Virus record (IMG/VR): IMGVR_UViG_3300032092_000001
Source: a virus
Lineage: Duplodnaviria; Caudoviricetes
Length of the DNA stretch: 64,000 bases
Reading direction: 5' to 3' (one strand)
Part shown: positions 543 to 20,724 of the stretch, piece after piece
Layout of the letters: the number at the start of each line of letters is the position of its first letter
Position numbering within the stretch: position 1 is the stretch's first letter
The notes under the pieces: model-generated
Seen by the model: the letters and a program-made list of their open reading frames with translations, nothing else
Told to the model about the DNA's origin: nothing
The model's database searches: none
Position numbers and translations under genes: made by a program

Positions 543-544
543 AT

Positions 545-697: not shown

Positions 698-699
698 AG

Positions 700-804: not shown

Positions 805-808
805 ATCT

Positions 809-1012: not shown

Positions 1013-1035
1013 AGGACAAAGATAATACTAATTTT

Positions 1036-1284: not shown

Positions 1285-1326
1285 AGTGTTTTAATTTATT
1301 TCACAAATCTACAACATTCTTTTCAG

Positions 1327-1497
1327 TTACACAAATATTTCTTCAATTCCCTTACAAATTTGTTTCTCATTGGATGTGTCCCAAAGTTTTGGGTTCACCA
1401 TATGACAGGTATGTTTCTTACCAGTTCTATTAACAAACTCTTTTAATTTTTGGTTGTGGTTATTCTCCACCTTCCAAGGACATTCTTTACACTTCAT
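1327..1497 (-). CDS. Small Cys/His-rich protein (56 aa), possible metal-binding, DUF6283-like
   Basis: Hand-translated MKCKECPWKVENNHNQKLKEFVNRTGKKHTCHMVNPKLWDTSNEKQICKGIEEIFV; CxxCPW...CH...C pattern. Confidence 0.6.
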   Translation of the reverse strand: MKCKECPWKVENNHNQKLKEFVNRTGKKHTCHMVNPKLWDTSNEKQICKGIEEIFV

Positions 1498-1504
1498 TTT
1501 AAAC

Positions 1505-1726
1505 TTATAGACTCATTTTTCTTCTAATTCTTCTTTTAGCCCTTCTAGACGCTCTGTCATACTGACGACACCATTTTTTGTACGATACTTCTTTACCATT
1601 GGCTAGTTTAATTTTTGAAGGTAACTCATCCTGAATAGGGATGTTAGTACTCACATTAACAGTGTCTTGCCCATATAATAAAGATGAAATCAAGATAGTA
1701 AAAATTGAAACTAATAGATTTTTCAT
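1505..1726 (-). CDS. Small secreted/membrane protein
   Basis: MKNLLVSIFTILISSLLYGQ signal-peptide-like start; basic C-terminus. Confidence 0.65.
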   Translation of the reverse strand: MKNLLVSIFTILISSLLYGQDTVNVSTNIPIQDELPSKIKLANGKEVSYKKWCRQYDRASRRAKRRIRRKMSL

Positions 1727-1777
1727 AGTGGTGTGATTATTTCTACAAATATACCACACCTATTCTTACCCCACAAG

Positions 1778-1784
1778 TATTTAT
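1778..1784 (+). promoter_or_regulatory. TATTTAT putative phage late promoter motif (representative copy)
   Basis: Sense-strand TATTTAT lies ~5-45 nt upstream of starts at 1792, 6399, 11087, 14540, 17064, 17314, 18987, 20724, 21485, 25014, 25398, 32781, 34375, 34725, 39761, 40791, 41087, 52948. Confidence 0.6.
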
Positions 1785-1791
1785 TTATGAA

Positions 1792-3552
1792 ATGTCAAAA
1801 AAATTTTTAATTTCTGAGGACGAAAGAAGGGATATCCTATCAATGTATGGAATCCTCAAAGAGTCCATTGACCCTACAAAAGGAGGTACTCAAGAATTTA
1901 GAGTAAATTATAAAGCAGGATGGTATGATGCAAATAATCCTTCAGCCTACCTGGATGGACAGAATAAATTAATTGATGAGATTGATAATTTTGTAAAAAC
2001 ACAATTAATCCCTTATCTACAAAAAGTACCATCTAGCGTGGTCGCCATGAAGTTTAGGTCAGGAGAATCTTTGGTCCCCAATACCGATAATGAAGGTAAA
2101 GATAAGGGTAAAGGACAACCTTTAGAACCTGGTAGATTAAGTGAGTTAAGAAAATATTATTTAGAACAATATTTGAATACTGTCGTCATTCCACAAATAC
2201 AAAATGTTGACAAACAAGCCGAAATACCCGAATTACAATATGAAAAGGTTGAACCAAAAGAACCTTGGATTGGTAAATCGTGGTGTAAAAACCCAACAGA
2301 TAAAGAAGGTAGGAGTTGTCTAAAAGCTTGGAAAGATAGTGGATATATTGACAGAGATAAATATAATTTAGACCAAGTAAGTGAGTTTTCAATTACGGTT
2401 ACCCCTAAGACACCGACCAAAAAAGTAGAAGATTGCCCATCAACAATCAGAATTAGATTTGAGATTAAAAATCATAGCTGTCAAAATGCTGAATTTTTTG
2501 TATTCGCAAATAAAACTAGATTAAATAATATGGAAGGTGGAATGACCGCAAACTTGAATACAGGTTCAGGTGGTAGAGGTATACCAGGTGTTAAAGACCA
2601 ACCAATATTCCCAAAAGAATTAATGAATCCGGGTTATGGTATTTTAAGTCGTAAATATAAATCCCCACCCAAAGGTCAAACTAAAGAACAGAATGACGCT
2701 CTTTTTAGTAAAGCAACAAGATGGGACGATTTTGAAATAACCCCATCAATTAAAGAGGAAATATTATCACAATCAATTAATGATAAAAACACCACTCCAT
2801 TTATTAACATATGGTTTGAATGTACCACCTATGATGCTCATGACGATATTGTTACAATAACGATTTATGATGGGAATAATAAAGTAGTTGGTAAACCATT
2901 TTCACCTAATGGTAAAAATGAAGGTTTATTGTGTACTTTAGACAAATGCGGTATTCCGATAAAGACAATTAATGGCTCAATTGGCCCATCAGAAGGAGAT
3001 GTTAGTTCCGCAAGACAAGAGTTAATTAATTATAAGAGTAGTTTGATGAATAGTTTAGGTTTGAGTGCCGACACAACTAACTTAGATACTAAGGGGCTGG
3101 AATTAGAGAAAGCGGGAAGTTTACTTACAAACATTAATACAGTTCTTAAAAGTTTTGACGACGCATTTAAATCAATTAAATCGGAGTTTGGAAAATACAA
3201 TAAGGAATTTAATAAACTTGATGAAACAACAAGAAAGTTTATTATGTCTCAAGGAGACTCATTTAATTTTGTTAGGAATCAGAAAATTGAATACTTTCAG
3301 AAAGTACTCAATTCTAATGGATATAAAAGTTTACTTAGAAAGGACCCTTTAGACCCAAATTCATACAAAAGAGGTTTAGTTACAAGTGATATGGGTGGAG
3401 ATTTAAAAGTAAGACTTGATAAATTTTACAATTATTTCAATAAATTCTACAAGATAGGAGATGATGAAAAAATTAGACCGATATCATTAGTAAGCCCTGA
3501 GAAATATATCAATCTTAATAATGAATTAAATAAAATACGAGAACAATCTTAA
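1792..3552 (+). CDS. Large hypothetical protein (586 aa), probable virion/head-associated
   Basis: Long ORF; TATTTAT upstream; N-terminus MSKKFLISE...ILKE. Confidence 0.85.
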   Translation: MSKKFLISEDERRDILSMYGILKESIDPTKGGTQEFRVNYKAGWYDANNPSAYLDGQNKLIDEIDNFVKTQLIPYLQKVPSSVVAMKFRSGESLVPNTDNEGKDKGKGQPLEPGRLSELRKYYLEQYLNTVVIPQIQNVDKQAEIPELQYEKVEPKEPWIGKSWCKNPTDKEGRSCLKAWKDSGYIDRDKYNLDQVSEFSITVTPKTPTKKVEDCPSTIRIRFEIKNHSCQNAEFFVFANKTRLNNMEGGMTANLNTGSGGRGIPGVKDQPIFPKELMNPGYGILSRKYKSPPKGQTKEQNDALFSKATRWDDFEITPSIKEEILSQSINDKNTTPFINIWFECTTYDAHDDIVTITIYDGNNKVVGKPFSPNGKNEGLLCTLDKCGIPIKTINGSIGPSEGDVSSARQELINYKSSLMNSLGLSADTTNLDTKGLELEKAGSLLTNINTVLKSFDDAFKSIKSEFGKYNKEFNKLDETTRKFIMSQGDSFNFVRNQKIEYFQKVLNSNGYKSLLRKDPLDPNSYKRGLVTSDMGGDLKVRLDKFYNYFNKFYKIGDDEKIRPISLVSPEKYINLNNELNKIREQS

Positions 3553-3592
3553 CTTTGATTATAGTTGTATTTTCAAATCGTTGAGTTCTTTT

Positions 3593-4105
3593 TCAATTAT
3601 TTTTATACCACTCAGGTGTTTCTCTATTTTTCCAAACCGCAAATCCTGACTTGGCTTCACGGTAGTAATTTCTATATGATTCAATAACATCATTACCTAC
3701 TTTGAACTCATCTCCCATCGCTAATGGAGGGGTTGTAAAATCAATATCATGAATGTTTGGTCTATTGGTTAAACACCACTCAATTACATCTTGAGATTTG
3801 TGACGTTTACCATATCGGTATGTATATTCTTTACACAACTCAAGTCCCAAATCACATAGGTAAAGATAGTTACTTAAACTCTCACGAGTCCAAATAGCAC
3901 AAGGATGATTCCTATGAGATAACTTGTACGGTACTTGGTCGTTTACTTGGTCGGTACTTGGTGGGTACTTGGTGGGTACTTGGTGGGTTACATGGTGGAC
4001 ACCACACAATAGTTGAGCGGTTTCCAATATCATCTTAACGACGTGTTTGTCACAGTGATACTGAGCACATTTTTTAACGTCAAAATCCAAAAAGAAAATA
4101 TTCAT
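3593..4105 (-). CDS. Pyrimidine-dimer DNA glycosylase / endonuclease V-like protein
   Basis: MNIFFLD...HCDKHVVKMILETAQLL and HRNHPCAIWTRES motifs of the Pyr_excise-type family. Confidence 0.8.
   Translation of the reverse strand: MNIFFLDFDVKKCAQYHCDKHVVKMILETAQLLCGVHHVTHQVPTKYPPSTDQVNDQVPYKLSHRNHPCAIWTRESLSNYLYLCDLGLELCKEYTYRYGKRHKSQDVIEWCLTNRPNIHDIDFTTPPLAMGDEFKVGNDVIESYRNYYREAKSGFAVWKNRETPEWYKNN
3931..3986 (+). repeat. Intragenic 11-nt tandem repeat
   Basis: GTACTTGGTGG x3 perfect (3954-3986) preceded by two imperfect units (GTACTTGGTCG, TTTACTTGGTCG). Confidence 0.9.
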
Positions 4106-4118
4106 ACCGCTAATATAT

Positions 4119-4145
4119 AAAAAAAACCGATTACTCGGCTTTTTT
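4119..4145. terminator. Short intrinsic terminator-like hairpin
   Basis: A-run CCGA-TTAC-TCGG followed by C and T-run. Confidence 0.45.
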
Positions 4146-4355
4146 AATCAGTCTTTGATAATGATTCTCATCAATAGCAAGTCTGAGTCTATTTTCGGTC
4201 GCCTTATATAAGTCGGCGCCAGGTCCACCCAATTGTTTCCCATACATTGTCAGATAATTCCTAACAAGTTTTCTACAAGCGATGTCTTGTATCGGATGGG
4301 TACAAGAGTCAATAACACTGATTACCCATAACATTGTTTCATACCAACCTTTCAT
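4131..4355 (-). CDS. Hypothetical protein (74 aa)
   Basis: Start corrected to MKGWYETML because the ORF-track start lies inside the tRNA gene. Confidence 0.7.
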   Translation of the reverse strand: MKGWYETMLWVISVIDSCTHPIQDIACRKLVRNYLTMYGKQLGGPGADLYKATENRLRLAIDENHYQRLIKKAE

Positions 4356-4376
4356 AGTTTTATATTTTAAAGTTTG

Positions 4377-4451
4377 TGAAGAAGACGGGAATCGAACCTC
4401 GTGGCACAAGGGTTTTCGGACCCTTTGCTCTACCTTCTGAGCTACTTCTTC
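4377..4451 (-). tRNA. tRNA-Phe-like with aberrant 8-nt anticodon loop (TCCGAAAA) and bulged T-stem
   Basis: GAAGAAG/CTTCTTC acceptor + A73; GCTC-AGAAGGTA-GAGC D-arm; AAGGG/CCCTT anticodon stem; TTCGATT T-loop. Confidence 0.7.
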
Positions 4452-4458
4452 ATTTATA

Positions 4459-5187
4459 TTATTTACTTAAAACTTCCTTGTTGTAGTAGTCATCAAAACC
4501 TACTAACATCTCAGAAATTGTTTTGGTACCTTCACTCTTAATTACTTCATCAATCAACCCAAATTCCTTAGCCTCATCTGAGTTATACCATCTATCTCTC
4601 CTTGAGAACTCCAATACCTCGTCAACCGTTTTCCCACAATTCTCAGCAATCATCTTAAACAAAATGTAGTTGTATTTCTCAGCTTCCATTTGATTAATTC
4701 TTGTGTCCTGCACATTACCCTCCGTTCCGTGACTAACTTGGTGAGTCATGACTTTGGAATATACAAGTGATGAACGTTTACCTTTGGTCCCTGATGATAA
4801 CAACACCGAGCCCATTGACGCACACATCCCAATGTTTGTGGTTGCAACATCTGACTTAATGTAGTTCATCAAATCAACGATACCCAAACCACAGAGAACT
4901 GAACCACCAGGTGAGTTAATATATAACGTAATGTCACGTTGTTCAACTGAGTCCAAAAATAACAACTGAGCCTGAACAATATCCGACATATGTTGGTTAA
5001 CCGCTCCCGACACCCACAAAATTCGTTCTCTCATTAATCGTGAGAAAATATCAATCTGTGTTGCTCTTAATTCTCTTTCCTCTAACACATAAGGTGTTAA
5101 ACCATTTTCAAATCTGTCCAAATTTAGTGAAGAAATACCCTCACTCATTGCAAATTTTCTAAACTCTTTTCCGTAATTCATTTTCAT
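4459..5187 (-). CDS. clpP: ATP-dependent Clp protease proteolytic subunit
   Basis: DIFSRLMRERI, YINSPGGSV, CASMG (catalytic Ser), HQ (catalytic His), RDRW motifs. Confidence 0.95.
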   Translation of the reverse strand: MKMNYGKEFRKFAMSEGISSLNLDRFENGLTPYVLEERELRATQIDIFSRLMRERILWVSGAVNQHMSDIVQAQLLFLDSVEQRDITLYINSPGGSVLCGLGIVDLMNYIKSDVATTNIGMCASMGSVLLSSGTKGKRSSLVYSKVMTHQVSHGTEGNVQDTRINQMEAEKYNYILFKMIAENCGKTVDEVLEFSRRDRWYNSDEAKEFGLIDEVIKSEGTKTISEMLVGFDDYYNKEVLSK

Positions 5188-5194
5188 TTCTTAA

Positions 5195-5605
5195 AAAGGT
5201 AAAGGTCGTCTTCTCTGTCCGTGTGGTATTCACGAGACGACCTTTGGTTAGTGGATATTACCATATATAGTATTTCTTCGGATATGTCCCAAGAGAGTGG
5301 GACCGTAGTAACCATCCACCGAAGACCTATACTCTCACCCATATTACAGGGTTACCCTCAGGACATCTTAACCCTACCCCCAAAGTTACATGGTCGGTCT
5401 CACTCGTAAGAAGAGTGTATATTGTAGAATTGTCCAGTGTTTCTACAACTTGTGGATTGTATTACAACCATTTAAGGTCCCTAACCCCTTCCATCCATAA
5501 TTGGGGTATCTGATTCAAATTTGTGTAGCCTCCCCCATAGCCTTGGAGCCTTCCCGCCAGGTTCACACTGTCCAACCGCAGATAAATCGGTATTGTGGGG
5601 TCTTC
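5195..5605 (-). ncRNA. Candidate ~400-nt structured RNA immediately upstream of clpP
   Basis: No credible ORF; GC-rich; perfect 11-bp stem 5201-5211/5235-5245 plus stems GTCCC/GGGAC, CTTCGG/CCGAAG, CACTC/GAGTG, TTGTAGAA/TTCTACAA, CCCC/GGGG, ACCG/CGGT. Confidence 0.55.
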
Positions 5606-5613
5606 TTTACAAA

Positions 5614-5979
5614 TTAGATTACTTCGGAAATTGCTTCGTCAGCATATTCCATAATAATATCGTTTTCAACACCTTCTGTAGCACTTACGAATGCGTCTCT
5701 CAAAACATCTTCGTCAATACTTGGTACAATTTCACGACCATCTACGTCAAATGTTACCACATCATTAGCATCTAATGAATTAATCATTTCATCAAAGATG
5801 TACTCATTAATTTTGTTGGTGTATTCAACCAAGAAGTTTTCAAGTTGTTCTCTTGTGAAAACGATATCCGCTTCTTCAACTACGAAACCCGCATCGGATT
5901 TAACTTCATTTAATTGTGATTGGATTTCATTCAATTTTTCAATCAACTCACTGTTTTGGTTTTTGTTTTTTTTGCTCAT
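5614..5979 (-). CDS. Hypothetical acidic protein (121 aa)
   Basis: ORF track; TATATTTG promoter motif near 6010. Confidence 0.8.
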   Translation of the reverse strand: MSKKNKNQNSELIEKLNEIQSQLNEVKSDAGFVVEEADIVFTREQLENFLVEYTNKINEYIFDEMINSLDANDVVTFDVDGREIVPSIDEDVLRDAFVSATEGVENDIIMEYADEAISEVI

Positions 5980-6029
5980 AATATTTATTTTTTGTTTTTA
6001 TTTTCTTTTACAAATATACACCAGATTTC

Positions 6030-6227
6030 TTATTCTAACAAGGTGTAGATGTTATTTTCATCCAAAATAATTTCACCCTTTTCTCCAATGGTAATACACA
6101 AACCTTCCATCACATTTTGGAAGTTTGTTTCACTCATAACATTAGCCTTGACAAGTTTTTTGTATCCCAAAATGAAGTCAATCAATTCAGGTTCACAGAT
6201 AAATCCTTTTTCAATTACTGGTATCAT
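6030..6227 (-). CDS. Hypothetical protein (65 aa)
   Basis: ORF track; follows tRNA-Cys. Confidence 0.6.
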   Translation of the reverse strand: MIPVIEKGFICEPELIDFILGYKKLVKANVMSETNFQNVMEGLCITIGEKGEIILDENNIYTLLE

Positions 6228-6243
6228 ATTGTATTAAATTTTG

Positions 6244-6315
6244 AGGTCGGAGTTGGAATCGAACCAACATAAGAGCTTTTGCAGAGCTCCACTTAAACCA
6301 TTCAGACATCCGACC
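6244..6315 (-). tRNA. tRNA-Cys(GCA)
   Basis: GGTCGGA/TCCGACC acceptor, U73 discriminator, GAGCT-CTGCAAA-AGCTC anticodon arm, GTTGG-TTCGATT-CCAAC T-arm. Confidence 0.92.
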
Positions 6316-6398
6316 TTATTTAGAATACAAAGATAATAATACTTATCACTACAAATCAAATTTTTTATTAATTATTTTTTCATTATATTTATCAATGT

Positions 6399-7055
6399 AT
6401 GGCAGTAAATATTGAGTTCTTTTTTAAACAGTTCACTAAAATGAATCATACAATTAATTGTGAGAATGGTTTGCAATTAATTTGGTCGGGAGATTATAAG
6501 GAAAGATTTGTAAAGAGATTCAAAGACAAGGAAGATGTTCCAATATACTTCATTAATAATCCCCAAGATTCACCGTACACAAAGGAAGCTCTCACACAGT
6601 TTATTGAGTCCAAATTAGAATCATTTAGAGAAATTATTCCAATAGATGAAAGTTATATTACAAGTCGTCTATACGAGATTGACTCTGAAGAAGCATTATT
6701 TATTCCAAATAAAGTATTAAGAAACATTACAAATAAATTACAAAAAGTCACGGTTGACAAATCAGTAAACCCCGTAAGATTAATTGGAGAATTTGACGGT
6801 CAGTTTGAAATATCTCAAGATGATGAGAATATACTTGTTTATATAGATTTCTCACTTTCAGAATTACAGTTAAACGGAGAAGAAATAGATAGTTCCCATG
6901 ATGAATACGATGAATGGATTGATTATTTCAGATACGATAATAACGAGTTCCTTGAAGACGGGATTTGGGTCTGTTTTAGTGAATTAACCAATAACAAAAA
7001 CTTTTATAACTATGAGTGGATGGGTTGGTATAGTAATTTCTATTTCATTACCTAA
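6399..7055 (+). CDS. Hypothetical protein (218 aa)
   Basis: ORF track; TATTTAT upstream. Confidence 0.8.
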   Translation: MAVNIEFFFKQFTKMNHTINCENGLQLIWSGDYKERFVKRFKDKEDVPIYFINNPQDSPYTKEALTQFIESKLESFREIIPIDESYITSRLYEIDSEEALFIPNKVLRNITNKLQKVTVDKSVNPVRLIGEFDGQFEISQDDENILVYIDFSLSELQLNGEEIDSSHDEYDEWIDYFRYDNNEFLEDGIWVCFSELTNNKNFYNYEWMGWYSNFYFIT

Positions 7056-8625
7056 TTAATACCACGTGTCCTTTTTCTACGTGTCCAATTCCTCTGTCGT
7101 CCCTATACGTCATTATCCAGTTATAAACACCTGTCTGACAATAGTACCCACTACCATCATTACCATTCCAAGTTTGGTTTAATGATTTAATATTATAAAC
7201 CATCATACCATCTCTACTGTAAATCTTCATATCAGGTTCATAAACTGACATACCAGCAATTTTAAACACGTCGTTGAATCCATCATTATTTGGTGTAAAT
7301 GAATTGGGAACATACAATCTATAACAAGTGTTTGTTCTAATGGTGATTGCATTTAACTCACTCTCACAACCCAAAGTATCAGTTCCATAAACTGTAATGG
7401 TATGGTCCATAGTCGTGTCAGGCCAAAGAACATTTAATTCAAAGTCAGTATCAGGTTGTAAAACACCATCAACATGCCAAGTATATTCAATACCAACACT
7501 ATCAGGAGCCAAATAAGTTTGGTTATAAGGGTCAGTACAGAAATCAATGAAGTTTGATTGAGCAAATATTTCAGGAGCTTCAAACTTTGGTCTCACATAA
7601 ATCTCAACGGAATCAACAACAGGACACCCATATATGTTAACAAAATACAATGAATAATATGTACCTGAATTAAACCCAGTGAAAACATTCCCAACCAAAT
7701 TCTCTCCATTCCAAAATCCACCTGAAGGACTTGCTGATAACTGAACCGTCTCTTCCAAACAGATACCAATATTGTCTTGGCCAAATGTAATTAAAGTATC
7801 CACAACAGTAATTGTTGTATCAATAATATCACCAATACATCCATCAACAGTTGTTTCTTGTACAGATATTACATAATCACCTGGTACCCCACCCCATTCA
7901 ACATCAATACTATTTGTTCCGTTGTCAGTCATAGTACCTCCACCAGAAATAGTCCAATCATATGTTGAACCAACAGTATTTACAACTGAATATGTTTCAA
8001 CAAGTCCAACACATATCGTATCCATTGGAACATCAATAGGTGAAGTTACAACATCACCTCCAAGAACAGTTCCATTGAATACTTGAAACGGAGAATCAAA
8101 ACAAGACTCGGTTCCCCAACTACCCATAGTTCCATCAGCATAAGGAGTAACCTCAATCAACAACGACAAAGGGTCACACTCATCAGTAACTTGTAACTGA
8201 ACACAAAAAGACCATAGACAATCAAGACCAAAATCCCCCCAATCATTACCAGGGTTTCCATCAGTAGGTCCTTGAGGTCCCTCATAGAAATAACCCGGTC
8301 CAACAGTTAATGTCCCATCATTATTTGTAACACTTTCAGACCATAACCATTGTTGAGGTGGTACCGCTCCACCACAATCATCAGGTCCTGAAATAGGACT
8401 GTGTGATACCCATCCCGGTCCCAAAGTCAATCCAAACCCCTCAATCCAATTGGACCCAAAGTTAGTTCCATTCCAACCGTTCATCGTGTAACACATAGTT
8501 ACAACAGTTTCCGGTTCATAAGTCCCATTAGTAGGTGATGGCGTTAATGTAAAAGATTGGACCCCAGCACATTGTGAAAGGACAATATTGGGGATTAATA
8601 ATAGGAAAAATAGGATTGTTCTCAT
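7048..8625 (-). CDS. Secreted protein with gliding-motility-associated (T9SS type-B / CHU_C) C-terminal domain and PKD/Ig-like repeats
   Basis: Signal peptide MRTILFFLLLIPNIVLSQC; C-terminus LYVPNSFTPNNDGFNDVFKI...IYSRDG...WNG...GVY...KGHVVLIR. Confidence 0.85.
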   Translation of the reverse strand: MRTILFFLLLIPNIVLSQCAGVQSFTLTPSPTNGTYEPETVVTMCYTMNGWNGTNFGSNWIEGFGLTLGPGWVSHSPISGPDDCGGAVPPQQWLWSESVTNNDGTLTVGPGYFYEGPQGPTDGNPGNDWGDFGLDCLWSFCVQLQVTDECDPLSLLIEVTPYADGTMGSWGTESCFDSPFQVFNGTVLGGDVVTSPIDVPMDTICVGLVETYSVVNTVGSTYDWTISGGGTMTDNGTNSIDVEWGGVPGDYVISVQETTVDGCIGDIIDTTITVVDTLITFGQDNIGICLEETVQLSASPSGGFWNGENLVGNVFTGFNSGTYYSLYFVNIYGCPVVDSVEIYVRPKFEAPEIFAQSNFIDFCTDPYNQTYLAPDSVGIEYTWHVDGVLQPDTDFELNVLWPDTTMDHTITVYGTDTLGCESELNAITIRTNTCYRLYVPNSFTPNNDGFNDVFKIAGMSVYEPDMKIYSRDGMMVYNIKSLNQTWNGNDGSGYYCQTGVYNWIMTYRDDRGIGHVEKGHVVLIR

Positions 8626-8669
8626 GCCGATAAATATCAACATAGATACAAATAAGATTATAATAGTTG

Positions 8670-8747
8670 TACCCCCTGAGAGACTCGAACTCTCACCCTA
8701 AGACATCGTTCTAAGCGATGCGCGTCTGCCTATTCCGCCAAGGGGGC
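8670..8747 (-). tRNA. tRNA-Leu(TAG), short variable arm
   Basis: GCCCCCT/AGGGGGT acceptor + A73; GCGGAATAGGCAGACGC D-arm; CATCG-CTTAGAA-CGATG; GAGAG-TTCGAGT-CTCTC. Confidence 0.88.
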
Positions 8748-8749
8748 AA

Positions 8750-8961
8750 ATTCCCCACCCTGAGATTATGGTGAGTAGTCATATCGGTTTTTTCCTATTT
8801 GTAAAAACCTGATGGGCATCCCCGTTAAAAAAAGTCAGACTACGTGGCGGTGTGTCAGGACCGTTACTCCACGGCTGGGTACTATCGGCATTTCCCAGTC
8901 TATACCGAGTCCATTGTTAAATGAGTCTTGGACCAAAGACTGTTGAGTATCTCTTACTCAT
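8750..8961 (-). ncRNA. Candidate ~210-nt RNA with tandem H-type pseudoknots between two tRNA genes
   Basis: AGUCU/AGACU with loop GGUCCA pairing UGGACU; CGGUAU/AUGCCG with loop CUGGG pairing CCCAG; CGUGG/CCACG; AUC.GGUUUUU/AAAAACCGAU; CACC/GGUG. Confidence 0.5.
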
Positions 8962-8963
8962 TG

Positions 8964-9039
8964 CAATCAGAACAGGATTCGAACCTGTGAATCACTCTCT
9001 TTCAAAGAGAGTTGTGTTTCCCTATCTCACTACCTGACT
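8964..9039 (-). tRNA. tRNA-like gene with register-ambiguous anticodon (TTG Gln or TGA Ser in a short-variable-arm body)
   Basis: AGTCAGG/TCTGATT acceptor; ACTCTCTTTGAAAGAGAGT anticodon arm; ACAGG-TTCGAAT-CCTGT T-arm identical to that of 428-542. Confidence 0.65.
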
Positions 9040-9053
9040 ATGTTTTTAATCTC

Positions 9054-9075
9054 TCAAAGAACTTCAACAAAGATA
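9054..9075 (-). promoter_or_regulatory. Bacteroidota-type -7 promoter element followed by boxA-like sequence, heading the tRNA/ncRNA operon
   Basis: TATCTTTG (9075-9068) then AAGTTCTTTGA (9064-9054). Confidence 0.6.
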
Positions 9076-9086
9076 TGGTAACTTTT

Positions 9087-9389
9087 TCATTCCACCAAAT
9101 CTTTTTCCACATCTTCATACCATTCTTCAACCGCAAATAATAATTGAATAAACTCACCATCTTCATCCGATTCATACTTAACATGGAACCCACCTGTTGA
9201 TATATTTGTTTTTTCCTCAAACGCCATTTTTAATAATCGTCTTGCTTCTTGTCTCAATTCAGGAACAGTAGGAATACCTTCTTCAGAAGCCACCCACTCC
9301 CAATTTAATGATTCCATTACTTTTTGGACTTGTTCAAACTTGAAGTAGTCCATTATGTTGTCAATCGCGACTTGTTGTTTCGGTGTCAT
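9087..9389 (-). CDS. Hypothetical protein (100 aa)
   Basis: Start set at MTPKQQ, just after the upstream gene's stop. Confidence 0.75.
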   Translation of the reverse strand: MTPKQQVAIDNIMDYFKFEQVQKVMESLNWEWVASEEGIPTVPELRQEARRLLKMAFEEKTNISTGGFHVKYESDEDGEFIQLLFAVEEWYEDVEKDLVE

Positions 9390-9390
9390 A

Positions 9391-9888
9391 TTATTTATTT
9401 TTTTTATTAATACTCTTTTGTTTCGCATCTTTCACCATCTTAATCATCTTCTCCCCAACTGAAAGATGAGTTTTAGTTTCCCCATCATCCATATTCATTA
9501 AATCAATAAGAATTTCCTTTTGTTTTTCTTTCTTCGCCATCTCAATCATCTTCTTAATAACCGCAATGTTTCCTTCTCTCTTATCTTTGAAGAAATCAAA
9601 AACCATTGGTGGAAACTTCCAACTCTTAATAGAGTAGTCAAATCCCAAAATCTCATTTGGTGTGGTGTCAGTTCTAATATCCACAAAATATGAATAATTC
9701 TCTTCAAACCATCTGAATGCTTGTGAGTAGGTTGGTGTGTCAACAGTAAATGAATCTTTTGTAACAAGCGGTCTTGAATAATACTCTAACTTTTCGGTTG
9801 AAGTACTATATCCTACAAAACAAGTTTCATCAAATCCAAGATTCTTGAGTTCTAATGCTAACTCATATGTAACAAATTCTTTTTCCAT
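9391..9888 (-). CDS. Hypothetical protein (165 aa)
   Basis: ORF track; MEKEFVTYELALELKNLGFDE phage-type N-terminus; TAtcTTTG upstream. Confidence 0.8.
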   Translation of the reverse strand: MEKEFVTYELALELKNLGFDETCFVGYSTSTEKLEYYSRPLVTKDSFTVDTPTYSQAFRWFEENYSYFVDIRTDTTPNEILGFDYSIKSWKFPPMVFDFFKDKREGNIAVIKKMIEMAKKEKQKEILIDLMNMDDGETKTHLSVGEKMIKMVKDAKQKSINKKNK

Positions 9889-9986
9889 AGGACAAAGATA
9901 AGAAAAAAAAATAATTAAACAAAAAAATAGAGTGTAGTAGGGCTGCAGTCCCCTGAGGCTCCTACACTAAGTTGTTCCTCTTTATT

Positions 9987-10463
9987 TTAAATTTTTATTT
10001 CAAAATGGATAAAATTATAGTCACCTTCAAATACTTCAATGTTATATGACATTCCTTCACTCGTCCTTTTCTTAATTGACAGGAGTCCTATTCCAGCACC
10101 ACCCTTTTCACTAAATTCAGAATTTTGTAACCTATTTAATATTTTTTCTTTTATTTCCTCATCAGTAGAACTTAAAACACAATCCATTCTCTTTTCCAAC
10201 TCTTCCGTCTTTTCTTTGGAGATTAGGTTTCCTGTCTTTATTGTGTACGAGTCTTCGTTTTTAATTAATTCAAAGTATGACTTGGTATCACCGTTTGAAT
10301 CTTTGTCGGAGTGATGAACCACGTTTTGTAGTGACTCAACAATTAAGAAACAAATCTTTCTGATTAGTGCTGGTTTTTCATCAAATGTATTAACACTCTG
10401 AATTACACCGTCAATGTATTCAGGTGTAATGTTTCCGTGGTATGAAAGTAAAGTGTTATTCAT
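9987..10463 (-). CDS. SiaB-family (DUF6272) GHKL-type protein kinase-like protein
   Basis: FLIVESLQNVVHHS (N-box) and SEKGGAGIGLLSI (G-box). Confidence 0.7.
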   Translation of the reverse strand: MNNTLLSYHGNITPEYIDGVIQSVNTFDEKPALIRKICFLIVESLQNVVHHSDKDSNGDTKSYFELIKNEDSYTIKTGNLISKEKTEELEKRMDCVLSSTDEEIKEKILNRLQNSEFSEKGGAGIGLLSIKKRTSEGMSYNIEVFEGDYNFIHFEIKI

Positions 10464-16227: not shown

Positions 16228-17064
16228 TTACTTCAATAAATTGTAATATTCCTTAAAGTGTTTGATTCTGTCAGGTAAACCTATAGTCCCACCATTAACT
16301 CGTTTAGTCACCGCAGTTACAGTATCGTCATCAGCACCCTTGTCACAAATAGACCAAAGTTTATTTGAGTCAAAGAAAAATGCGGCAGATGCCAATGGAT
16401 ATTTTGTAGCAACTAAATCCGGATTGGATACCGTGTCTTCACCAATAAACTTAGCGAAGTTCGTATAGTTCTGTTTTCCAGTCAACTGAATGTAACCTCG
16501 GCCACGAAATTTATAACCTTCTTTGGTTGACTCGTCACCATTACCCATTCTTCCACCATAAACTTTTGATGCAATTTTTTCAGGGTTTCTAGCATATCCC
16601 TCGGCTAAATTACCAGGAAAATACTTCGGGAAGATTTTCTTTAAACCGTCAGCAGAATAATTTAAATTCTCTTGAACCGCTTTAAATCCACCTGACTCGT
16701 GTCCACATTGAGCCAAGAAATGGGCTAATCTTAATGGGTTAGTGATATTGAATTTCTTAGCAGTGTCAGGGATTTGAGCAATTACAGCATCAGGAATATG
16801 TCCTTTAAGATTCTGCAATTTAAATTCTGAACTTGTAGGAATTACAACATCTTCTTTTATCACTTGAGCAGGTTGTTCAGTCGCTCCGAACATTTTACTC
16901 CAAGTTCCATCACCAACAATTCCGTCAGCAGTTAATCCGTTAGCTGCTTGCCATTCTTTAACTTTAGCCGCTGTTCCATTACCGAAGATACCATCAGCGG
17001 TAAGTCCTAATTTTGCTTGGAGTTTTTTAACGTCTTCTCCCTGAGACCCAACTTTTAGTAACAT
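16228..17064 (-). CDS. Endolysin: N-terminal peptidoglycan-binding domain plus GH19 (chitinase-class) catalytic domain
   Basis: LLKVGSQGEDVKKLQ...ADGIFG...ADGIVG; HFLAQCGHESGGF, ENLNYS, FRGRGYIQLTGK, RVNGG. Confidence 0.9.
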   Translation of the reverse strand: MLLKVGSQGEDVKKLQAKLGLTADGIFGNGTAAKVKEWQAANGLTADGIVGDGTWSKMFGATEQPAQVIKEDVVIPTSSEFKLQNLKGHIPDAVIAQIPDTAKKFNITNPLRLAHFLAQCGHESGGFKAVQENLNYSADGLKKIFPKYFPGNLAEGYARNPEKIASKVYGGRMGNGDESTKEGYKFRGRGYIQLTGKQNYTNFAKFIGEDTVSNPDLVATKYPLASAAFFFDSNKLWSICDKGADDDTVTAVTKRVNGGTIGLPDRIKHFKEYYNLLK

Positions 17065-17089
17065 AATTTTATAGTTTTAACTATAAATA

Positions 17090-17314
17090 TTACTTTTTGG
17101 TGTAAATGAAAAAGTGTTCTCCAATTTCTTTAGTATACCTTTCAATGAACTTACCCTCACAAGCCTTTTTCATTGTGTTACTTAAAGCAAAATGTTCATC
17201 ATCAGTAATAGTTGGTTGAATGATTATCTCATATTCCATTTTATTTGGAAGTTCTTTTTCTTTCACCTCAGCCCATGATGGGAGGACCTCTTTTAAATTT
17301 TGTAGTATTGACAT
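17090..17314 (-). CDS. Hypothetical protein (74 aa)
   Basis: ORF track; TATTTAT upstream. Confidence 0.7.
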   Translation of the reverse strand: MSILQNLKEVLPSWAEVKEKELPNKMEYEIIIQPTITDDEHFALSNTMKKACEGKFIERYTKEIGEHFFIYTKK

Positions 17315-17335
17315 AATAGTAAGTATCTTACATAA

Positions 17336-17363
17336 ATAAAAAAACCCGTCAGAAAGACAGGTC
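17336..17363 (-). terminator. Intrinsic terminator ending the large ncRNA
   Basis: Minus strand ACCTGTC-TTTCT-GACGGGT followed by a T-run. Confidence 0.75.
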
Positions 17364-17364
17364 A

Positions 17365-18272
17365 GATTAGTTAATATAGCCTGAGATTACAGCTTTATGT
17401 GAGAACCTTTTGAAGTATTATTGTTTTACTTCGTATCCACTTCCTTTTGAGAAGTATTTCTCAGTCACGGTCTTTTAGGTTTACCACTCCTTGAGGTCTA
17501 AGTTACTCTCTTCTTACTCAACTCTTTCCGAGGTTGCCACCCCAGTTCGTCCTTGCGGGATTAAAGGTTTTTCGTAAAACTACAGTCGGACTTGGGGTCT
17601 TTCTGTGCAATGAACGGCTCATTACTATGTAGTGACCTTTCACCTAAACCTGATGGACACTTTTCCTTAATGTATTTTTTAATTATTGGATAATTTTGGA
17701 ATCCATTAGTTTTGTGTCGTAGATGTGTCAGAGTAGTGGTCCACCGTAAGCTCCGTCTCCTTTTGGGCGACAGAATACTAAACTACTCCGTGAAGTGTCC
17801 CCACCTCCATATTTCAAGATTACTTCATAAAGATACCTTGGTAGGTCGTCTTTAAGGATAGTAGCGACACCACTCGTTCTCTATCTTACCTTTCGGTTTT
17901 AAGTCCTCTATCGTATTGGAACCCGCAATAGTGTAATTGGATAATCACATTTTTTACTTGATTCCTATGGGTTATTCTTGTTGTTCTTCCGAACTCAACC
18001 TGATAATCTACTTTACCAGGTCACCCTTCCATTTTCCCTACGAAGTCATCCTCGGTACTAAAGGTTTGGTGATATCCCACTTGTGTACTTGAGTTCTCCA
18101 CCCCTTACGGGGTTTCAAACCGCAGCCTCCTCAACACGGGGGAGACCACTTTATCCTACTTTAGTAGTTTATTTAAGGACCATACACGGCCCATTATCGT
18201 TTATCTCTTTTCAGTGCTCATATTCGTCACACGAAGGTGGGAATACGACTTACTCAGAGAATGGATAATCTA
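17365..18272 (-). ncRNA. Large (~900 nt) ornate structured ncRNA, GOLLD/ROOL-like
   Basis: No credible ORF; GC-richer than flanks; minus-strand GNRA hairpins (ACCCC-GUAA-GGGGU, ACC-GAAA-GGU, CC-GCAA-GG); long-range helices 17655-62/17793-800, 17731-37/17782-88, 17714-19/17864-69; own promoters and terminator. Confidence 0.8.
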
Positions 18273-18275
18273 TTT

Positions 18276-18554
18276 TTTCAAAGAACGTTTCGGACATTTC
18301 CGAATTGTTTTACAAATTTACGACATTTATTTCTATTTGTCAAGTTATTTGTGAACTTTTTTTGAGATTTGGAACTTTCATCGTTTTACCACTTTGTGAA
18401 CCTTAATCTCAAATTCTTTACAAACTTACGACTTTTTTTTCAATCTGTCAAATAAATTAAGAACTTTTTTTTTCAATTTGACTACCGAGTATCTTTCATT
18501 CCCTATAAGTGTCAAATCTTTTACAAACTTACGGCAAGAAATTGGTAGTGTCAA
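18276..18554 (-). promoter_or_regulatory. Three tandem Bacteroidota-type promoters plus boxA-like element
   Basis: TTGACA-17nt-TAA(A/G)TTTG at 18343-18313, 18451-18421, 18554-18524; CGTTCTTTGAAA at 18287-18276. Confidence 0.8.
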
Positions 18555-18561
18555 ATAAATA

Positions 18562-18966
18562 TCACAAAAAATTCAAAAGTAGTTCTTTAATACCATTAGA
18601 CATGTATAAATTCTCAATTTCATTCCTACCCATATATTGACATTGAGTGTGCTCAAACCCATCCATAGCATTTTCTAAATCAGGAACTATCTTTTGATTT
18701 GTTTCATAAGTGAATACATGAAGGACACTTTTCTGAACCCCTAATTTATTATAACGATTAATCTTACCATAAGATTCAATATCGCCATTAATATCAACTC
18801 CCATTTCCTCAATAAATTCTCTGTACGCAGCTTTTTTAGGGTCCTCCCCTTCCTCAATACCTCCCATAGGTATTGCCCATTTACCTGGCTCTTCGTTTTC
18901 TTGAGCTCTTTGACACACAAGACATTTGTCCTTAACTTTTACAATAATCCCAGCAGATTGTTTCAT
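18562..18966 (-). CDS. NUDIX hydrolase
   Basis: Nudix box GGIEEGEDPKKAAYREFIEEMG. Confidence 0.9.
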   Translation of the reverse strand: MKQSAGIIVKVKDKCLVCQRAQENEEPGKWAIPMGGIEEGEDPKKAAYREFIEEMGVDINGDIESYGKINRYNKLGVQKSVLHVFTYETNQKIVPDLENAMDGFEHTQCQYMGRNEIENLYMSNGIKELLLNFL

Positions 18967-18986
18967 ATCTAATATTTATCATAAGT

Positions 18987-19343
18987 ATGTATGTCAAAAT
19001 AAATAATAATGATTTTAAAGTCAAAGTATGTAATTCCAACAGAGAGGTTTCCGAAGGGATGATGGGTAAGGAATTCATCGGATTTGATGGTATGATATTC
19101 TTTATGGGTAATGGATACCATAGTTTTTGGATGAAAAACTGTATCATACCATTAGACATTATCTTTATTGATAGCAATTTAATAATAACTGAAATATATC
19201 ATAACTGTGAACCATGTGACACACCAATATGTGAGAATTATGACGGTTATGGCAAATACGTATTAGAGATTGAAGGTGGTCGTTGTGAAAACGATAACAT
19301 TCAAATCGGTGATTCAGTCTCTTTTATTTTTCAGACTCACTAA
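18987..19343 (+). CDS. DUF192 family protein
   Basis: GMM...GMIF...FWMKNCIIPLDIIFID...YVLEIEGG. Confidence 0.85.
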   Translation: MYVKINNNDFKVKVCNSNREVSEGMMGKEFIGFDGMIFFMGNGYHSFWMKNCIIPLDIIFIDSNLIITEIYHNCEPCDTPICENYDGYGKYVLEIEGGRCENDNIQIGDSVSFIFQTH

Positions 19344-20724
19344 TCTTATCTTTAAGAACCGTTACAAATCTTTTCTGTAACATCTTCAAAAACTTAATAT
19401 AAGGACTATCACCAGACTCAGGGTTATATTTATACTTACCTTGTGGTGGTCTCTTACTTCTTCCAATATAGTTTAATCCCGAGATATTAGTAATACATTT
19501 GTGTCCGCCAGAGTTTGCTTGGATTACATCCCAAACAGGAACTGTGATTTCATCTAAAAATAACCATTCGTCTTCTGTTAATTCTGATGTTGTTTTAGAC
19601 ATTAAATCTTTAATATCCATTAATTCTTCAACACCATCTTTCTTATTTAGATATTTCTCACCGTATATTGCCGCAAAATCTTTGAACGTAAATCCAACTG
19701 AGCCTTCTCCAACACCAGTTTCTGATACCCACTTAATTGTTGACAAAGGAACTTGTTTCTCCTTTAACTGTCCTTCCCACTTTGATAAAACCTCTTGAGC
19801 AATCTCCCCAAGATTCACACCCTTCAATTGTCTTTCTTTCTTAAATGGGTTACATGACGCCTGTAACAAACCTAACGGCCAAGCAATTACCAAAAAGTCA
19901 GCCTCAGGGTTATTCTTAAATGGAGTATATCTGTCATAAGAGCCAGGTTTCATCATATTACCACCACCATACTGAACTATAATGTTATCTTCAATATCAG
20001 GGTAACTTTGCATTTGTGAAACATAACCAGCTTTATTCATCTCAAGTTTTTCAATATCTGCCCATCCCTTATCTTTCATTTCTTTTCTAATAATATTAAA
20101 AATAGACAACAAAGATGGTTGAGCATCCATTACTAACTTCTCTAAAAACCCTGGTTTGTTTTTAAATGCTAATAATAGTTTGTTAGTGACAAGTCCTAAC
20201 ATCATTCTATTTCTTTTAGCGGATGAATCCTTATCAAAAGAATAAACATAATTCATTACCATATCGGGAGTTATCTCATTAGAGGCATAATTAGCACTAT
20301 CAACCATTGATATTGTTTCTACGTCAACGGCTGTGAATATTTCAGATGAAGGAATAATTTGTGAAAGTGTTTCAACATTTGAACGAGATTGTCTAAACGA
20401 TGTTGAACCTGTGTCCTCAGCCCCTGCCTGTCTATCATGGTGGTCCGTATGAATAACGAACATAGGTTTCCCATGTGCAAAATCCACTAAGACCGGCATA
20501 ACCTCACCAGTCGCGTCAGCCTTTTTAACTGAGAATTCTTTATCACCGTACTGAATAATTTCAGTATCAACAACTTTAATTCCGTTGTCTTCAAGATATT
20601 TTTTCATGGCAATTGCTGAAGTAACACCATCTAAATCTTGGTGAAAGTAAATTTTTGCCTTTTTGTATCTATCGGATAATTCCCCGATGTTTCTAATACC
20701 ACCTTCAGAGATAATTCTTTTCAT
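19324..20724 (-). CDS. DHH/DHHA1-family phosphoesterase, putative head-packaged
   Basis: HQDLDG, VDF, TDHH, DSA and C-terminal SGGH motifs; N-terminus MKRIISE; TATTTAT upstream. Confidence 0.7.
   Translation of the reverse strand: MKRIISEGGIRNIGELSDRYKKAKIYFHQDLDGVTSAIAMKKYLEDNGIKVVDTEIIQYGDKEFSVKKADATGEVMPVLVDFAHGKPMFVIHTDHHDRQAGAEDTGSTSFRQSRSNVETLSQIIPSSEIFTAVDVETISMVDSANYASNEITPDMVMNYVYSFDKDSSAKRNRMMLGLVTNKLLLAFKNKPGFLEKLVMDAQPSLLSIFNIIRKEMKDKGWADIEKLEMNKAGYVSQMQSYPDIEDNIIVQYGGGNMMKPGSYDRYTPFKNNPEADFLVIAWPLGLLQASCNPFKKERQLKGVNLGEIAQEVLSKWEGQLKEKQVPLSTIKWVSETGVGEGSVGFTFKDFAAIYGEKYLNKKDGVEELMDIKDLMSKTTSELTEDEWLFLDEITVPVWDVIQANSGGHKCITNISGLNYIGRSKRPPQGKYKYNPESGDSPYIKFLKMLQKRFVTVLKDKISESEK

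What the first reader, a model, noticed from the sequence alone, without database searches (positions are those of the whole stretch)
17336..18287. Phage-encoded ~900-nt ornate ncRNA with its own transcription unit (GOLLD/ROOL-like or a new class)
Seen: a ~0.9-kb ORF-free, GC-richer island bounded by promoters and a boxA-like element upstream and a terminator downstream. The minus strand carries many hairpins, several GNRA-capped (ACCCC-GUAA-GGGGU at 18100-18113, ACC-GAAA-GGU near 17890, CC-GCAA-GG near 17553). Long-range helices: a perfect 8-bp GGACACUU/AAGUGUCC (17793-17800 with 17655-17662) spanning an AU-rich linker, and GUGUCG/CGACAC (17864-69 with 17714-19), which crosses it and so forms a pseudoknot. 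Established: GOLLD and ROOL are giant ncRNAs of unknown function found in phage/prophage contexts, often near tRNAs, and reported to form multimeric cages. Inference: this is a member or a new relative in a Bacteroidota lytic phage, expressed at high level.
Basis: partly seen in the sequence, partly recalled or inferred. Interest (0 to 1): 0.9.

Follow-up and report, generated by a model that had tools for sequence, protein, structure and literature searches.

The report
GOLLD cage RNA in huge phage
The gene-free stretch is a full-length copy of GOLLD, an already described giant phage RNA that assembles into hollow RNA-only cages, so it is a new member of a known family; its one less ordinary feature is a ribosomal-RNA-style leader signal that these phages also place in front of their tRNA and tmRNA genes.

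Summary
Window 17378-18307 (minus strand) is a GOLLD RNA, not a new class. Rfam RF02032 matches 17378-17790 end to end at 306 bits (cut-off 150). The 5' half shares long sequence blocks with GOLLD env-38, whose 14-mer cage is solved. Thirty-four distinct full-length homologues from viral contigs give 184 consensus pairs, 114 with compensatory changes. No frame is conserved.

The island, three tandem Bacteroidota-type promoters, the terminator and the three named hairpins are real.

A small hairpin plus GUUCUUUGAA sits at the 5' end in 32 of 35 sequences (one reads GUUCUUUAAA). It resembles the boxA I found in four Bacteroidota rRNA operons, and it also precedes phage tRNA and tmRNA genes. Nus-factor antitermination is an inference.

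Contigs from three metatranscriptomes of three studies cover the RNA body at high depth, which is only a weak hint of strong expression.

The host phage is over 240 kb and freshwater, with distant GOLLD and ORF466 matches in 634-642 kb uncultured phages. The scan has noted GOLLD with boxA on other DNA before. Function remains unknown. Interest is low to moderate.

The parts
18524..18554 (-). Promoter-like unit P3 (TTGACA-N17-TAAGTTTG)
   Evidence: one of only 3 matches in 64 kb, against 0.08 expected. The TAnnTTTG -7 box is the Bacteroidota type (from my own knowledge).
18421..18451 (-). Promoter-like unit P2 (TTGACA-N17-TAAGTTTG)
18313..18343 (-). Promoter-like unit P1 (TTGACA-N17-TAAATTTG), proximal. 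The inferred start of the RNA is near 18307.
   Evidence: In one search, 29 of 37 upstream stretches hold at least one such motif. In 7 of them (window, L058, L050, L089, L047, L016, L018) it ends 26-28 nt before the GTTCTTT box. In one search, nhmmer similarity to homologues begins at query position 2-5, which is about 18309-18306.
18289..18304 (-). Small hairpin at the 5' end (UUCGGA-AAUG-UCCGAA), boxB-like by position
   Evidence: It is present in about 24 of 35 homologues, with compensatory variants (UCGGA/UCCGA, CAGG/CCUG, UUGG/CCAA, UCAGA/UCUGA).
18277..18286 (-). boxA-like element GUUCUUUGAA
   Evidence: GUUCUUUGAA in 31 of 35 sequences, GUUCUUUAAA in 1, absent in 3; the only exact copy in the window. 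Bacteroidota rrn boxA reads GUUC(A/U)UUGACA; the same motif lies in front of phage tRNA and tmRNA genes.
18193..18269 (-). 5' extension not present in the env-38 construct: helix AUUAUC/GAUAAU enclosing a variable hairpin
   Evidence: the helix is kept in 22-32 of 35 sequences per pair, with few double changes, and the enclosed hairpin varies in length; the env-38 construct starts just after the equivalent of GAUAAU.
17791..18194 (-). GOLLD 5' domain (equivalent to env-38 residues 1 to about 420). It includes the variable-tip hairpin 18113-18100, the invariant GAAA loop hairpin 17896-17889 (L11a by position) and the GGGA-capped hairpin 17807-17792.
   Evidence: covarying helices run throughout; shared sequence blocks with env-38..
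17378..17790 (-). GOLLD conserved 3' domain (Rfam RF02032 positions 1-416)
   Evidence: 306.4 bits against a gathering score of 150, E about 1e-87, untruncated.
17668..17728 (-). AU-rich variable linker (J13/15 by position). It holds no tRNA here.
   Evidence: unpaired model positions 63 to about 130; length and sequence vary among homologues; no tRNA there.
17652..17745 (-). Helix closing the linker: GGUGGAC (17745-17739) with GUCCAUC (17658-17652)
   Evidence: 35 of 35 sequences pair at 6 of the 7 positions and 34 of 35 at the seventh. Double changes occur at 4 pairs (for example CG21/UA13 and GC27/AU8); env-38 has GAUAGAC/GUCUAUC at the same places.
17528..17559 (-). Two adjacent hairpins, L21a and L21b by position: CCC-GCAA-GG (17559-17551) and GGGGU-GGCA-ACCUC
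   Evidence: the central loop dinucleotide of the first hairpin is self-complementary in 35 of 35 sequences (GC 28, CG 4, AU 3). The second loop always holds GC; in env-38 these loops form symmetric intermolecular kissing contacts.
17336..17363 (-). Intrinsic terminator (8-bp stem, T-run)
   Evidence: it is kept, with a compensatory change, in the closest relatives L058, L054, L012 and L070.

Best explanation
This is a gene for a full-length GOLLD RNA of the env-38 type, carried by a huge freshwater phage that probably infects Bacteroidota.

Shown: family membership of both domains, a covarying secondary structure, and a promoter-to-terminator unit.

Inferred, step 1: transcription starts near 18307 from the proximal of three tandem TTGACA-N17-TAnnTTTG promoters.

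Inferred, step 2: the first 30 nt of the RNA, a small hairpin then GUUCUUUGAA, act like an rRNA-operon boxB-boxA leader. They would load host NusB/S10 and partners onto RNA polymerase. The roughly 930-nt untranslated RNA would then be made without Rho-dependent termination, and perhaps with help in folding.

Inferred, step 3: transcription ends at the terminator 17363-17336. In many relatives the 3' end would instead be set by processing of an abutting tRNA-Met.

Inferred, step 4: the RNA folds into a 5' cap domain and a 3' ring domain joined by a disordered AU-rich linker. It then self-assembles into a closed RNA-only cage, about 14 copies as for env-38, partly through the self-complementary L21a and L21b loops.

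What the cage does is unknown in the literature. My guess, about 25%, is that it holds or scaffolds a component of the translation apparatus late in infection. The basis is that these phages treat GOLLD as one of their stable-RNA genes alongside tRNA and tmRNA.
For:: RF02032 matches 17378-17790 at 306.4 bits against 150, covering model positions 1-416. No other family is found at E<=1 in 17000-18700.

44 viral-contig loci align over the whole length, and 34 are distinct.

184 consensus pairs, 114 with double changes, in both domains.

the top covarying pairs lie in nested helices. One long-range pair, 17665/17595, switches CG19/GC16.

the env-38 sequence shares long blocks with the window's 5' domain, namely GGAUAAAGUGG, GUUGAGUUCGGAAGA, AAGAAUAAC.CAUAG and AAGAUAG. 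It also has the same linker-closing helix.

the L21a central dinucleotide is self-complementary in 35 of 35 sequences.

the longest ORFs differ in strand and place, and variation shows no 3-base periodicity (0.69/0.68/0.72).

promoters and terminator.

Leader. (PMC13753749) describes B. subtilis rrn leaders as a small 5' hairpin followed at once by AUGAUCUUUGAAA.

in three RNA libraries from three studies, contigs 98-99% like the window have depth around 340-360 (X18) over the body, against 3.7 for a contig over 18305-18440. Summed depth over the body is 47-10,000, against 0-21 in the flanks.
Against: No ends are mapped, because contigs cannot show starts or ends. Part of the depth contrast reflects many relatives sharing the conserved body, and the DNA run also shows about 3-5 times more depth there.

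Cage assembly is extrapolated from env-38 and not tested. The window RNA carries about 110 extra 5' nucleotides whose fate is unknown.

The boxA reading rests on sequence likeness, position and conservation only. Three near-identical relatives (L054, L012, L070) have swapped the leader for another hairpin without the full box, so it is dispensable for the RNA body. The motif also overlaps the TTTG core of the local -7 box, so a promoter-related role is not excluded.
Confidence: 0.9

Rival explanations
1. It is a new class of giant ornate RNA unrelated to GOLLD or ROOL.
For: It is longer than env-38 (about 930 against 833 nt) and has an extra 5' extension.
Against: The Rfam GOLLD match is full-length at twice the cut-off. 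The 5' domain shares long blocks with env-38.
Confidence: 0.01
2. The conserved GUUCUUUGAA and hairpin are not an antitermination signal. They would instead be a processing or stability element of stable-RNA precursors (for example an RNase site or 5' protective hairpin), or part of the promoter or initial transcribed region.
For: The motif sits only 6-22 nt before tRNA and tmRNA 5' ends, closer than rrn boxA sits to 16S (about 130 nt). It contains the TTTG of the local -7 box. Three relatives have replaced it.
Against: It matches 10 of 11 positions of an rrn spacer boxA found in a Saprospiraceae genome. It also matches 10 of 11 positions of the gammaproteobacterial consensus GYTCTTTAANA. The hairpin-then-box order is that of B. 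subtilis rrn leaders. It lies after the -7 box, so it is transcribed.
Confidence: 0.4
3. The stretch is a decayed or fast-evolving protein-coding gene.
For: Short ORFs of 41-61 aa exist in the window.
Against: No ORF is conserved in strand or place across 35 homologues, there is no codon periodicity, and 114 pairs show compensatory changes.
Confidence: 0.01
4. One reading: an 8-bp helix spans the linker and is crossed by a 6-bp helix to form a pseudoknot.
For: Both pairs of segments are complementary in the window, and helix 1 can pair in 96% of cells.
Against: Neither helix has any double change. Helix 1 has 10 C-A cells and helix 2 has 16 at one pair. The changes on these strands are compensated in other helices: the GGGA hairpin 17807-17792, the linker-closing helix 17745-17739/17658-17652, and the local CGA/UCG stem. 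env-38 supports the linker-closing helix.
Confidence: 0.05

Closest known systems
GOLLD RNA env-38 (Rfam RF02032; cryo-EM 14-mer, PDB 9MEE; Kretsch et al. 2025, PMC12286853)
   Same: Both have a two-domain build with a conserved 3' domain, an alignable 5' domain and an AU-rich disordered linker closed by the same helix. Both have a conserved GAAA loop (L11a by position) and self-complementary L21a/L21b loops. Both come from aquatic phage-type DNA with tRNA-Met nearby in relatives.
   Different: The window RNA has about 110 extra 5' nucleotides: a hairpin, the boxA-like box, and a helix enclosing a variable hairpin. It ends in an intrinsic terminator with no adjacent tRNA. Several hairpin tips differ in length. 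Its assembly has not been tested.
Streptococcus agalactiae GOLLD (12-mer full length, 10-mer 3' domain; PDB 9L0R and 9LMF, as summarised in PMC12990946)
   Same: It shares the same 3' domain family.
   Different: Sag GOLLD lacks P9, P11a-c and P21b. The window RNA keeps the L11a-type GAAA hairpin and a second P21 hairpin, so it is of the env-38 rather than the Lactobacillales type.
ROOL RNA (Rfam RF03087)
   Same: It is also a large phage-borne RNA that forms RNA-only cages, often near tRNAs.
   Different: Its sequence and fold are unrelated. There is no Rfam match at E<=1 in 17000-18700.
rRNA operon leader boxB-boxA antitermination signal (E. coli UGCUCUUUAACA; B. subtilis 5' hairpin then AUGAUCUUUGAAA, PMC13753749)
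   Same: A small 5' hairpin is followed within 3 nt by GUUCUUUGAA, ahead of a long untranslated structured RNA. It closely resembles the boxA I found in Bacteroidota rrn leaders and spacers.
   Different: It is phage-encoded, and it lies in front of GOLLD, tRNA and tmRNA genes rather than rRNA. Binding of Nus factors is untested.

Membership tests
GOLLD (RF02032) | Covariance-model score at or above the curated gathering score over the conserved 3' domain | tested here: met
   306.4 bits against 150, model positions 1-416 of 416, not truncated.
GOLLD (RF02032) | 3' domain helices and the long-range 10-bp pairing of the model kept by covariation | tested here: met
   columns 821-830 pair with 970-979, and 7 of the 10 pairs have double changes. 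All the hairpins of the model covary in 35 sequences.
GOLLD (RF02032) | Less conserved 5' domain of about 400 nt, homologous to that of a solved member | tested here: met
   the env-38 sequence from the paper's Supplementary Table 4 shares long blocks in the same order. The comparison was by eye only, because the sequence could not be loaded into a tool; the domain covaries among homologues.
GOLLD (RF02032) | Variable single-stranded linker between the domains, sometimes holding a tRNA | tested here: met
   AU-rich, variable in length, at 17728-17668; no tRNA inside.
GOLLD (RF02032) | Phage or prophage context, often near tRNA genes | tested here: met
   endolysin and NUDIX neighbours; the genome is over 240 kb with phage notes; four tRNA genes lie 8-13 kb away; tRNA-Met abuts the 3' end in at least 11 of 34 homologues.
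GOLLD (RF02032) | Self-assembly into a closed RNA-only multimer (10- to 14-mer) | not testable with these tools
   There is only indirect support. The loops that form symmetric kissing contacts in env-38 keep self-complementary centres in 35 of 35 sequences.
ROOL (RF03087) | Match to the ROOL covariance model | tested here: not met
   no match at E<=1.
rrn-type boxA antitermination leader | Sequence close to the host-phylum rrn boxA, lying in the transcribed leader | tested here: met
   GUUCAUUGACA and GUUCUUUGACA in Flavobacterium, Arcicella and Saprospiraceae rrn operons, and GAUCAUUGACA in Apibacter. The window reads GUUCUUUGAAA, 26 nt after the -7 box.
rrn-type boxA antitermination leader | Binding of NusB/S10 and resistance to Rho-dependent termination | not testable with these tools

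The most novel reading that the evidence does not exclude
Huge Bacteroidota phages run a small 'stable-RNA regulon'. GOLLD, tRNA and tmRNA genes would each be preceded by an rRNA-operon-type hairpin-boxA leader that recruits the host Nus antitermination and chaperone complex. GOLLD biogenesis would then be mechanistically tied to the host's rRNA transcription machinery. This would give a first experimental handle on how GOLLD is made, and possibly a clue to what it is for. I found no paper in the held library linking GOLLD with boxA or antitermination. Earlier notes of this scan have seen the pairing on other DNA.
Probability: 0.45. Interest if true: 0.5.

Novelty: new member of a known kind. 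Interest (0 to 1): 0.3.

Why it matters
As a GOLLD copy it adds little, because the family, its fold and its cage are published. It still offers four modest points.

1. It is a clean, self-contained GOLLD unit with its own promoters and terminator and no fused tRNA. It has 34 close homologues, which makes it convenient material for expression and assembly studies.

2. The alignment independently supports published contacts. These are the self-complementary L21a centre and a covarying loop-linker pair.

3. The hairpin plus boxA-like leader is shared with phage tRNA and tmRNA genes. It suggests that GOLLD is made as a stable RNA under rRNA-type antitermination. That is testable and bears on the open question of GOLLD function.

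Tried and rejected
1. The genome search 'own': no genome is held for this window.

None is a GOLLD by nhmmer, so it gave no host information. I used those loci only as handles to Bacteroidota rRNA operons.

3. GenBank phages: one distant DNA match (66% identity, 3' domain) in a 634-kb uncultured phage, with no annotation.

4. The first boxA literature search with match 'anywhere' was swamped by 'carboxamide'.

5. Read laying: all runs are contigs, so no RNA ends, strand or level can be read. The parts without cover (flanks 16600-17382 and 18253-19200 in the RNA runs) are not evidence of absence. The drop in cover near 18250 and 17435 coincides with variable regions of relatives, so I did not take it as transcript ends.

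6. PHROGs gave no family for 8 of 10 large ORFs, so I did not identify structural hallmark genes in this window.

7. ORF74 downstream is not hydrophobic, so I rejected the idea that it is a holin forming a lysis cassette with the endolysin.

8. RNAalifold's two pairs joining column 226/227 to 1003/1004 are rejected, because 1003 covaries with 989.

9. I looked for a partner strand for GUUCUUUGAA within the RNA. AAGAAU near 17979 can pair but is mismatched in two homologues, and the box is too invariant to test. I rejected it as unsupported.

Full report
**What is there**

The stretch 17336-18310 has no ORF above 61 aa on either strand. It is GC-richer than its flanks, 0.39-0.44 against 0.27-0.36. 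On the minus strand an 8-bp terminator hairpin with a T-run lies at 17363-17343. Upstream are three tandem copies of TTGACA-N17-TAAnTTTG at 18343-18313, 18451-18421 and 18554-18524. These are the only three matches in the 64-kb window, against 0.08 expected by chance. The TAnnTTTG box is the Bacteroidota -7 promoter element (my own knowledge).

The neighbours on the same strand are a NUDIX hydrolase gene upstream (18562-18966) and, downstream, a 74-aa ORF followed by a GH19 endolysin with a peptidoglycan-binding domain (16228-17064).

**Identity**

Rfam's GOLLD model RF02032 matches 17378-17790 on the minus strand over all 416 model positions. The score is 306.4 bits against a gathering score of 150. 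No other family appears at E<=1 between 17000 and 18700. That model covers only the conserved 3' half of GOLLD.

For the 5' half I collected relatives. A pattern scan of IMG/VR followed by nhmmer gave 44 loci that align to the window RNA over essentially its whole length. Of these, 34 are distinct.

The sequence of GOLLD env-38, the member whose 14-mer cage was solved, is printed in Supplementary Table 4 of Kretsch et al. 2025 (PMC12286853). Its 5' domain shares long blocks with the window in the same order: GGAUAAAGUGG, GUUGAGUUCGGAAGA, AAGAAUAAC.CAUAG, AAGAUAG and GGUGGUG. This comparison was by eye, because the sequence could not be loaded into a tool. On this basis the window RNA is a full env-38-type GOLLD. 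It is not ROOL and not a new class.

**Structure**

The 35-sequence alignment (A1) gives an RNAalifold consensus of 184 pairs. Of these, 114 keep pairing through changes on both sides, in both domains. No ORF is conserved in strand or position, and variable columns show no codon periodicity (0.69/0.68/0.72 by phase).

- ACCCC-GUAA-GGGGU (18113-18100) is the tip of a hairpin whose length varies among relatives.
- CC-GAAA-GG (17896-17889) is nearly invariant. [quoted passage not shown]
- CCC-GCAA-GG (17559-17551) is the first of two adjacent hairpins, L21a by position.

The two central loop bases of that last hairpin are self-complementary in all 35 sequences: GC in 28, CG in 4 and AU in 3. This is the pattern the paper used to argue for a symmetric intermolecular kissing contact. 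The neighbouring loop always holds GC.

One long-range pair, 17665 with 17595, switches between C-G (19) and G-C (16) with no exception. It joins the 3' flank of the linker to a hairpin loop. It fits the published loop-linker kissing contact, but that assignment is my inference.

GGACACUU (17800-17793) and AAGUGUCC (17662-17655) can pair in 96% of cells. However, no pair changes on both sides, and one pair is C-A in 10 sequences.

The changes on these strands are compensated elsewhere.
- The first strand is the 3' half of a GGGA-capped hairpin, GAGGUG-GGGA-CACUUC (17807-17792). It pairs in 35 of 35 sequences and has double changes at three pairs.
- The second strand pairs as GUCCAUC (17658-17652) with GGUGGAC (17745-17739). 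It has double changes at four pairs, for example CG21/UA13. env-38 has GAUAGAC and GUCUAUC at the same two places.

Its UCG pairs locally with CGA, switching AU19/GC16 at two pairs. The proposed pseudoknot is therefore not supported.

**The leader**

Similarity among homologues begins at about 18309-18306, just after the proximal -7 box. The first element is a small hairpin at 18304-18289. It is present in about 24 of 35 sequences, with compensatory variants. Three nucleotides later comes GUUCUUUGAA (18286-18277). This box is present in 31 of 35 sequences, reads GUUCUUUAAA in one, and is absent in three. It is the only exact copy in the window.

Next comes a helix AUUAUC/GAUAAU enclosing a variable hairpin (18269-18193). 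The env-38 construct begins just after this point.

The box resembles boxA.
- The gammaproteobacterial consensus is GYTCTTTAANA (PMC5725501).
- I located 16S genes in four Bacteroidota genomes. At the expected places, about 130 nt before 16S and in the 16S-23S spacer, I found GUUCAUUGACA (Flavobacterium, Arcicella, Saprospiraceae), GAUCAUUGACA (Apibacter) and GUUCUUUGACA (Saprospiraceae).

The motif GTTC[AT]TTGA occurs 96 times across the 117 viral loci, against about 26 expected from base composition. Counting the window as well, there are 102 hits. Of these, 51 lie within 150 nt upstream, on the same strand, of a stable-RNA gene: 42 GOLLD, 3 tmRNA (6-7 nt away) and 6 tRNA (15-22 nt away). 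Random placement gives 2.4 +/- 1.7. One of the tRNA cases is in this window, at 9062-9054 before tRNA-Ser.

In the 634-kb uncultured phage LR745206.1 the same order recurs twice: -7 box, small hairpin, GUUCUUUGA, then an RNA gene. It occurs once before a tRNA-like gene and once at the start of that phage's GOLLD, directly after a tRNA-Met.

I read this as an rRNA-type antitermination leader used for phage stable RNAs, with about 45-55% confidence. Binding of Nus factors is untested. Three near-identical relatives have replaced the leader, and a processing or promoter-proximal role remains possible. I found no paper in the held library that links GOLLD with boxA or antitermination. Earlier notes of this scan have recorded GOLLD with boxA-like leaders on other DNA.

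**Expression**

The stretch, or close relatives of it, is held by 20 public runs from 17 studies. Most are freshwater, and six are metatranscriptomes. All the runs are contigs, so ends, strand and level cannot be read.

Laid on 16600-19200, three RNA libraries from three studies show summed contig depth of 47 to about 10,000 over 17383-18252, against 0-21 in the flanks. A DNA run shows 34-331 over the body against 1-189 in the flanks. In run X18, contigs 98-99% identical to the window have depth about 340-360 over the body. A near-identical contig over 18305-18440 has depth 3.7.

This is a weak hint that the RNA body is far more abundant than upstream read-through. It is not proof of a discrete transcript.

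**Context**

Notes on the same genome lie up to 175 kb beyond the window's end, so the phage is over 240 kb. Only the GOLLD (66% DNA identity over the 3' half) and the 466-aa ORF upstream of it (39-44% protein identity) find matches in GenBank phages. Those matches are in 634-642 kb uncultured phages.

That ORF has a weak, sub-threshold DHH match. Together with a DUF192 gene it recurs upstream of GOLLD in about 14 of the loci. The two are not adjacent in LR745206.1.

In at least 11 of 34 homologues a tRNA-Met gene starts 1-12 nt after the GOLLD 3' end. The window's own clade has the terminator instead. In this window tRNA genes lie 8-13 kb away.

**How it most likely works**

Shown:
- It is a member of the GOLLD family.
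- It has a conserved two-domain fold.
- It forms a promoter-to-terminator unit.

Inferred:
- It is transcribed from tandem promoters with a boxA-type leader.
- It folds into a cap domain and a ring domain joined by a disordered linker.
- It self-assembles into a closed cage like env-38, a 14-mer of 380 Å (PMC12286853).

The biological role of GOLLD is unknown in the literature. The paper suggests that the cages might contain macromolecules such as phage-encoded tRNAs or bacterial ribosomes. Association with stable-RNA genes and signals, as seen here, fits a link to the translation apparatus but does not establish one.

**Verdict**

It is a new member of a known kind. The boxA-like leader is the one point worth following up.

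Noticed in passing
window 9054-9090 (-): TATCTTTG (a -7-type box) is followed 6 nt later by GTTCTTTGAG, which ends 15 nt before tRNA-Ser (9039-8963). This is the same boxA-like motif as in the GOLLD leader. In other loci the motif lies 6-7 nt before tmRNA genes and 15-22 nt before tRNA genes.
   Followed up: partly
L042, L096, L085, L092, L045, L025, L101, L082, L112, L095, L020 (3' end of GOLLD): A tRNA-Met (CAT) gene starts 1-12 nt after the GOLLD 3' end, so the two are probably co-transcribed and the GOLLD 3' end would be set by tRNA processing. In L084, L036, L007 and L107 the tRNA-Met lies upstream instead. The window's clade has an intrinsic terminator in its place.
   Followed up: partly
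window 18987-20724; also L058, L066, L067, L016, L115, L086, L084, L014, L036, L072, L031, L007/L111: A 466-aa ORF (weak, sub-threshold DHH-domain match) and a divergently oriented DUF192 gene recur just upstream of GOLLD in about 14 loci, sometimes with the NUDIX gene. This may be plain synteny among related phages. In LR745206.1 the ORF466 homologue is 314 kb away from GOLLD.
   Followed up: partly
L054:3933-3973, L012:5774-5814, L070:4915-4955: Three relatives whose RNA body is nearly identical to the window's have a different leader. It is a 9-10-bp hairpin whose loop holds CUUUGAA, with no full GUUCUUUGAA box.
   Followed up: no
window about 18517-18476 and 18413-18361 (-): Between the tandem promoters, each upstream promoter is followed by a long inverted repeat (AUUUGAC...GUCAAAU; UUUGAGAUU...AAUCUCAAA), then an A-run and GUUC. 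The purpose is unknown. They could be short leader RNAs or remnants of duplicated promoter-leader units.
   Followed up: no
window 4377-4451 (-) and 8669-8747 (-): The two tRNA finders disagree. Rfam lists a tRNA at 4377-4451 that ARAGORN does not call. ARAGORN calls a tRNA-Leu(tag) at 8669-8747 that is not in Rfam's gathering-level list.
   Followed up: no
L042:6034-6424, L050:13563-13958, L095:6509-6896, L062 near 1351: Phage-encoded tmRNA genes lie within a few kb of GOLLD in several related contigs. Three of them are directly preceded by the boxA-like motif.
   Followed up: partly
window 17141-17150 (-): GTTCATTGAA, the Flavobacterium-type rrn boxA core, lies inside the 74-aa ORF between the GOLLD terminator and the endolysin gene. 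It may be chance: 11 one-mismatch hits in the window against 12 expected.
   Followed up: no
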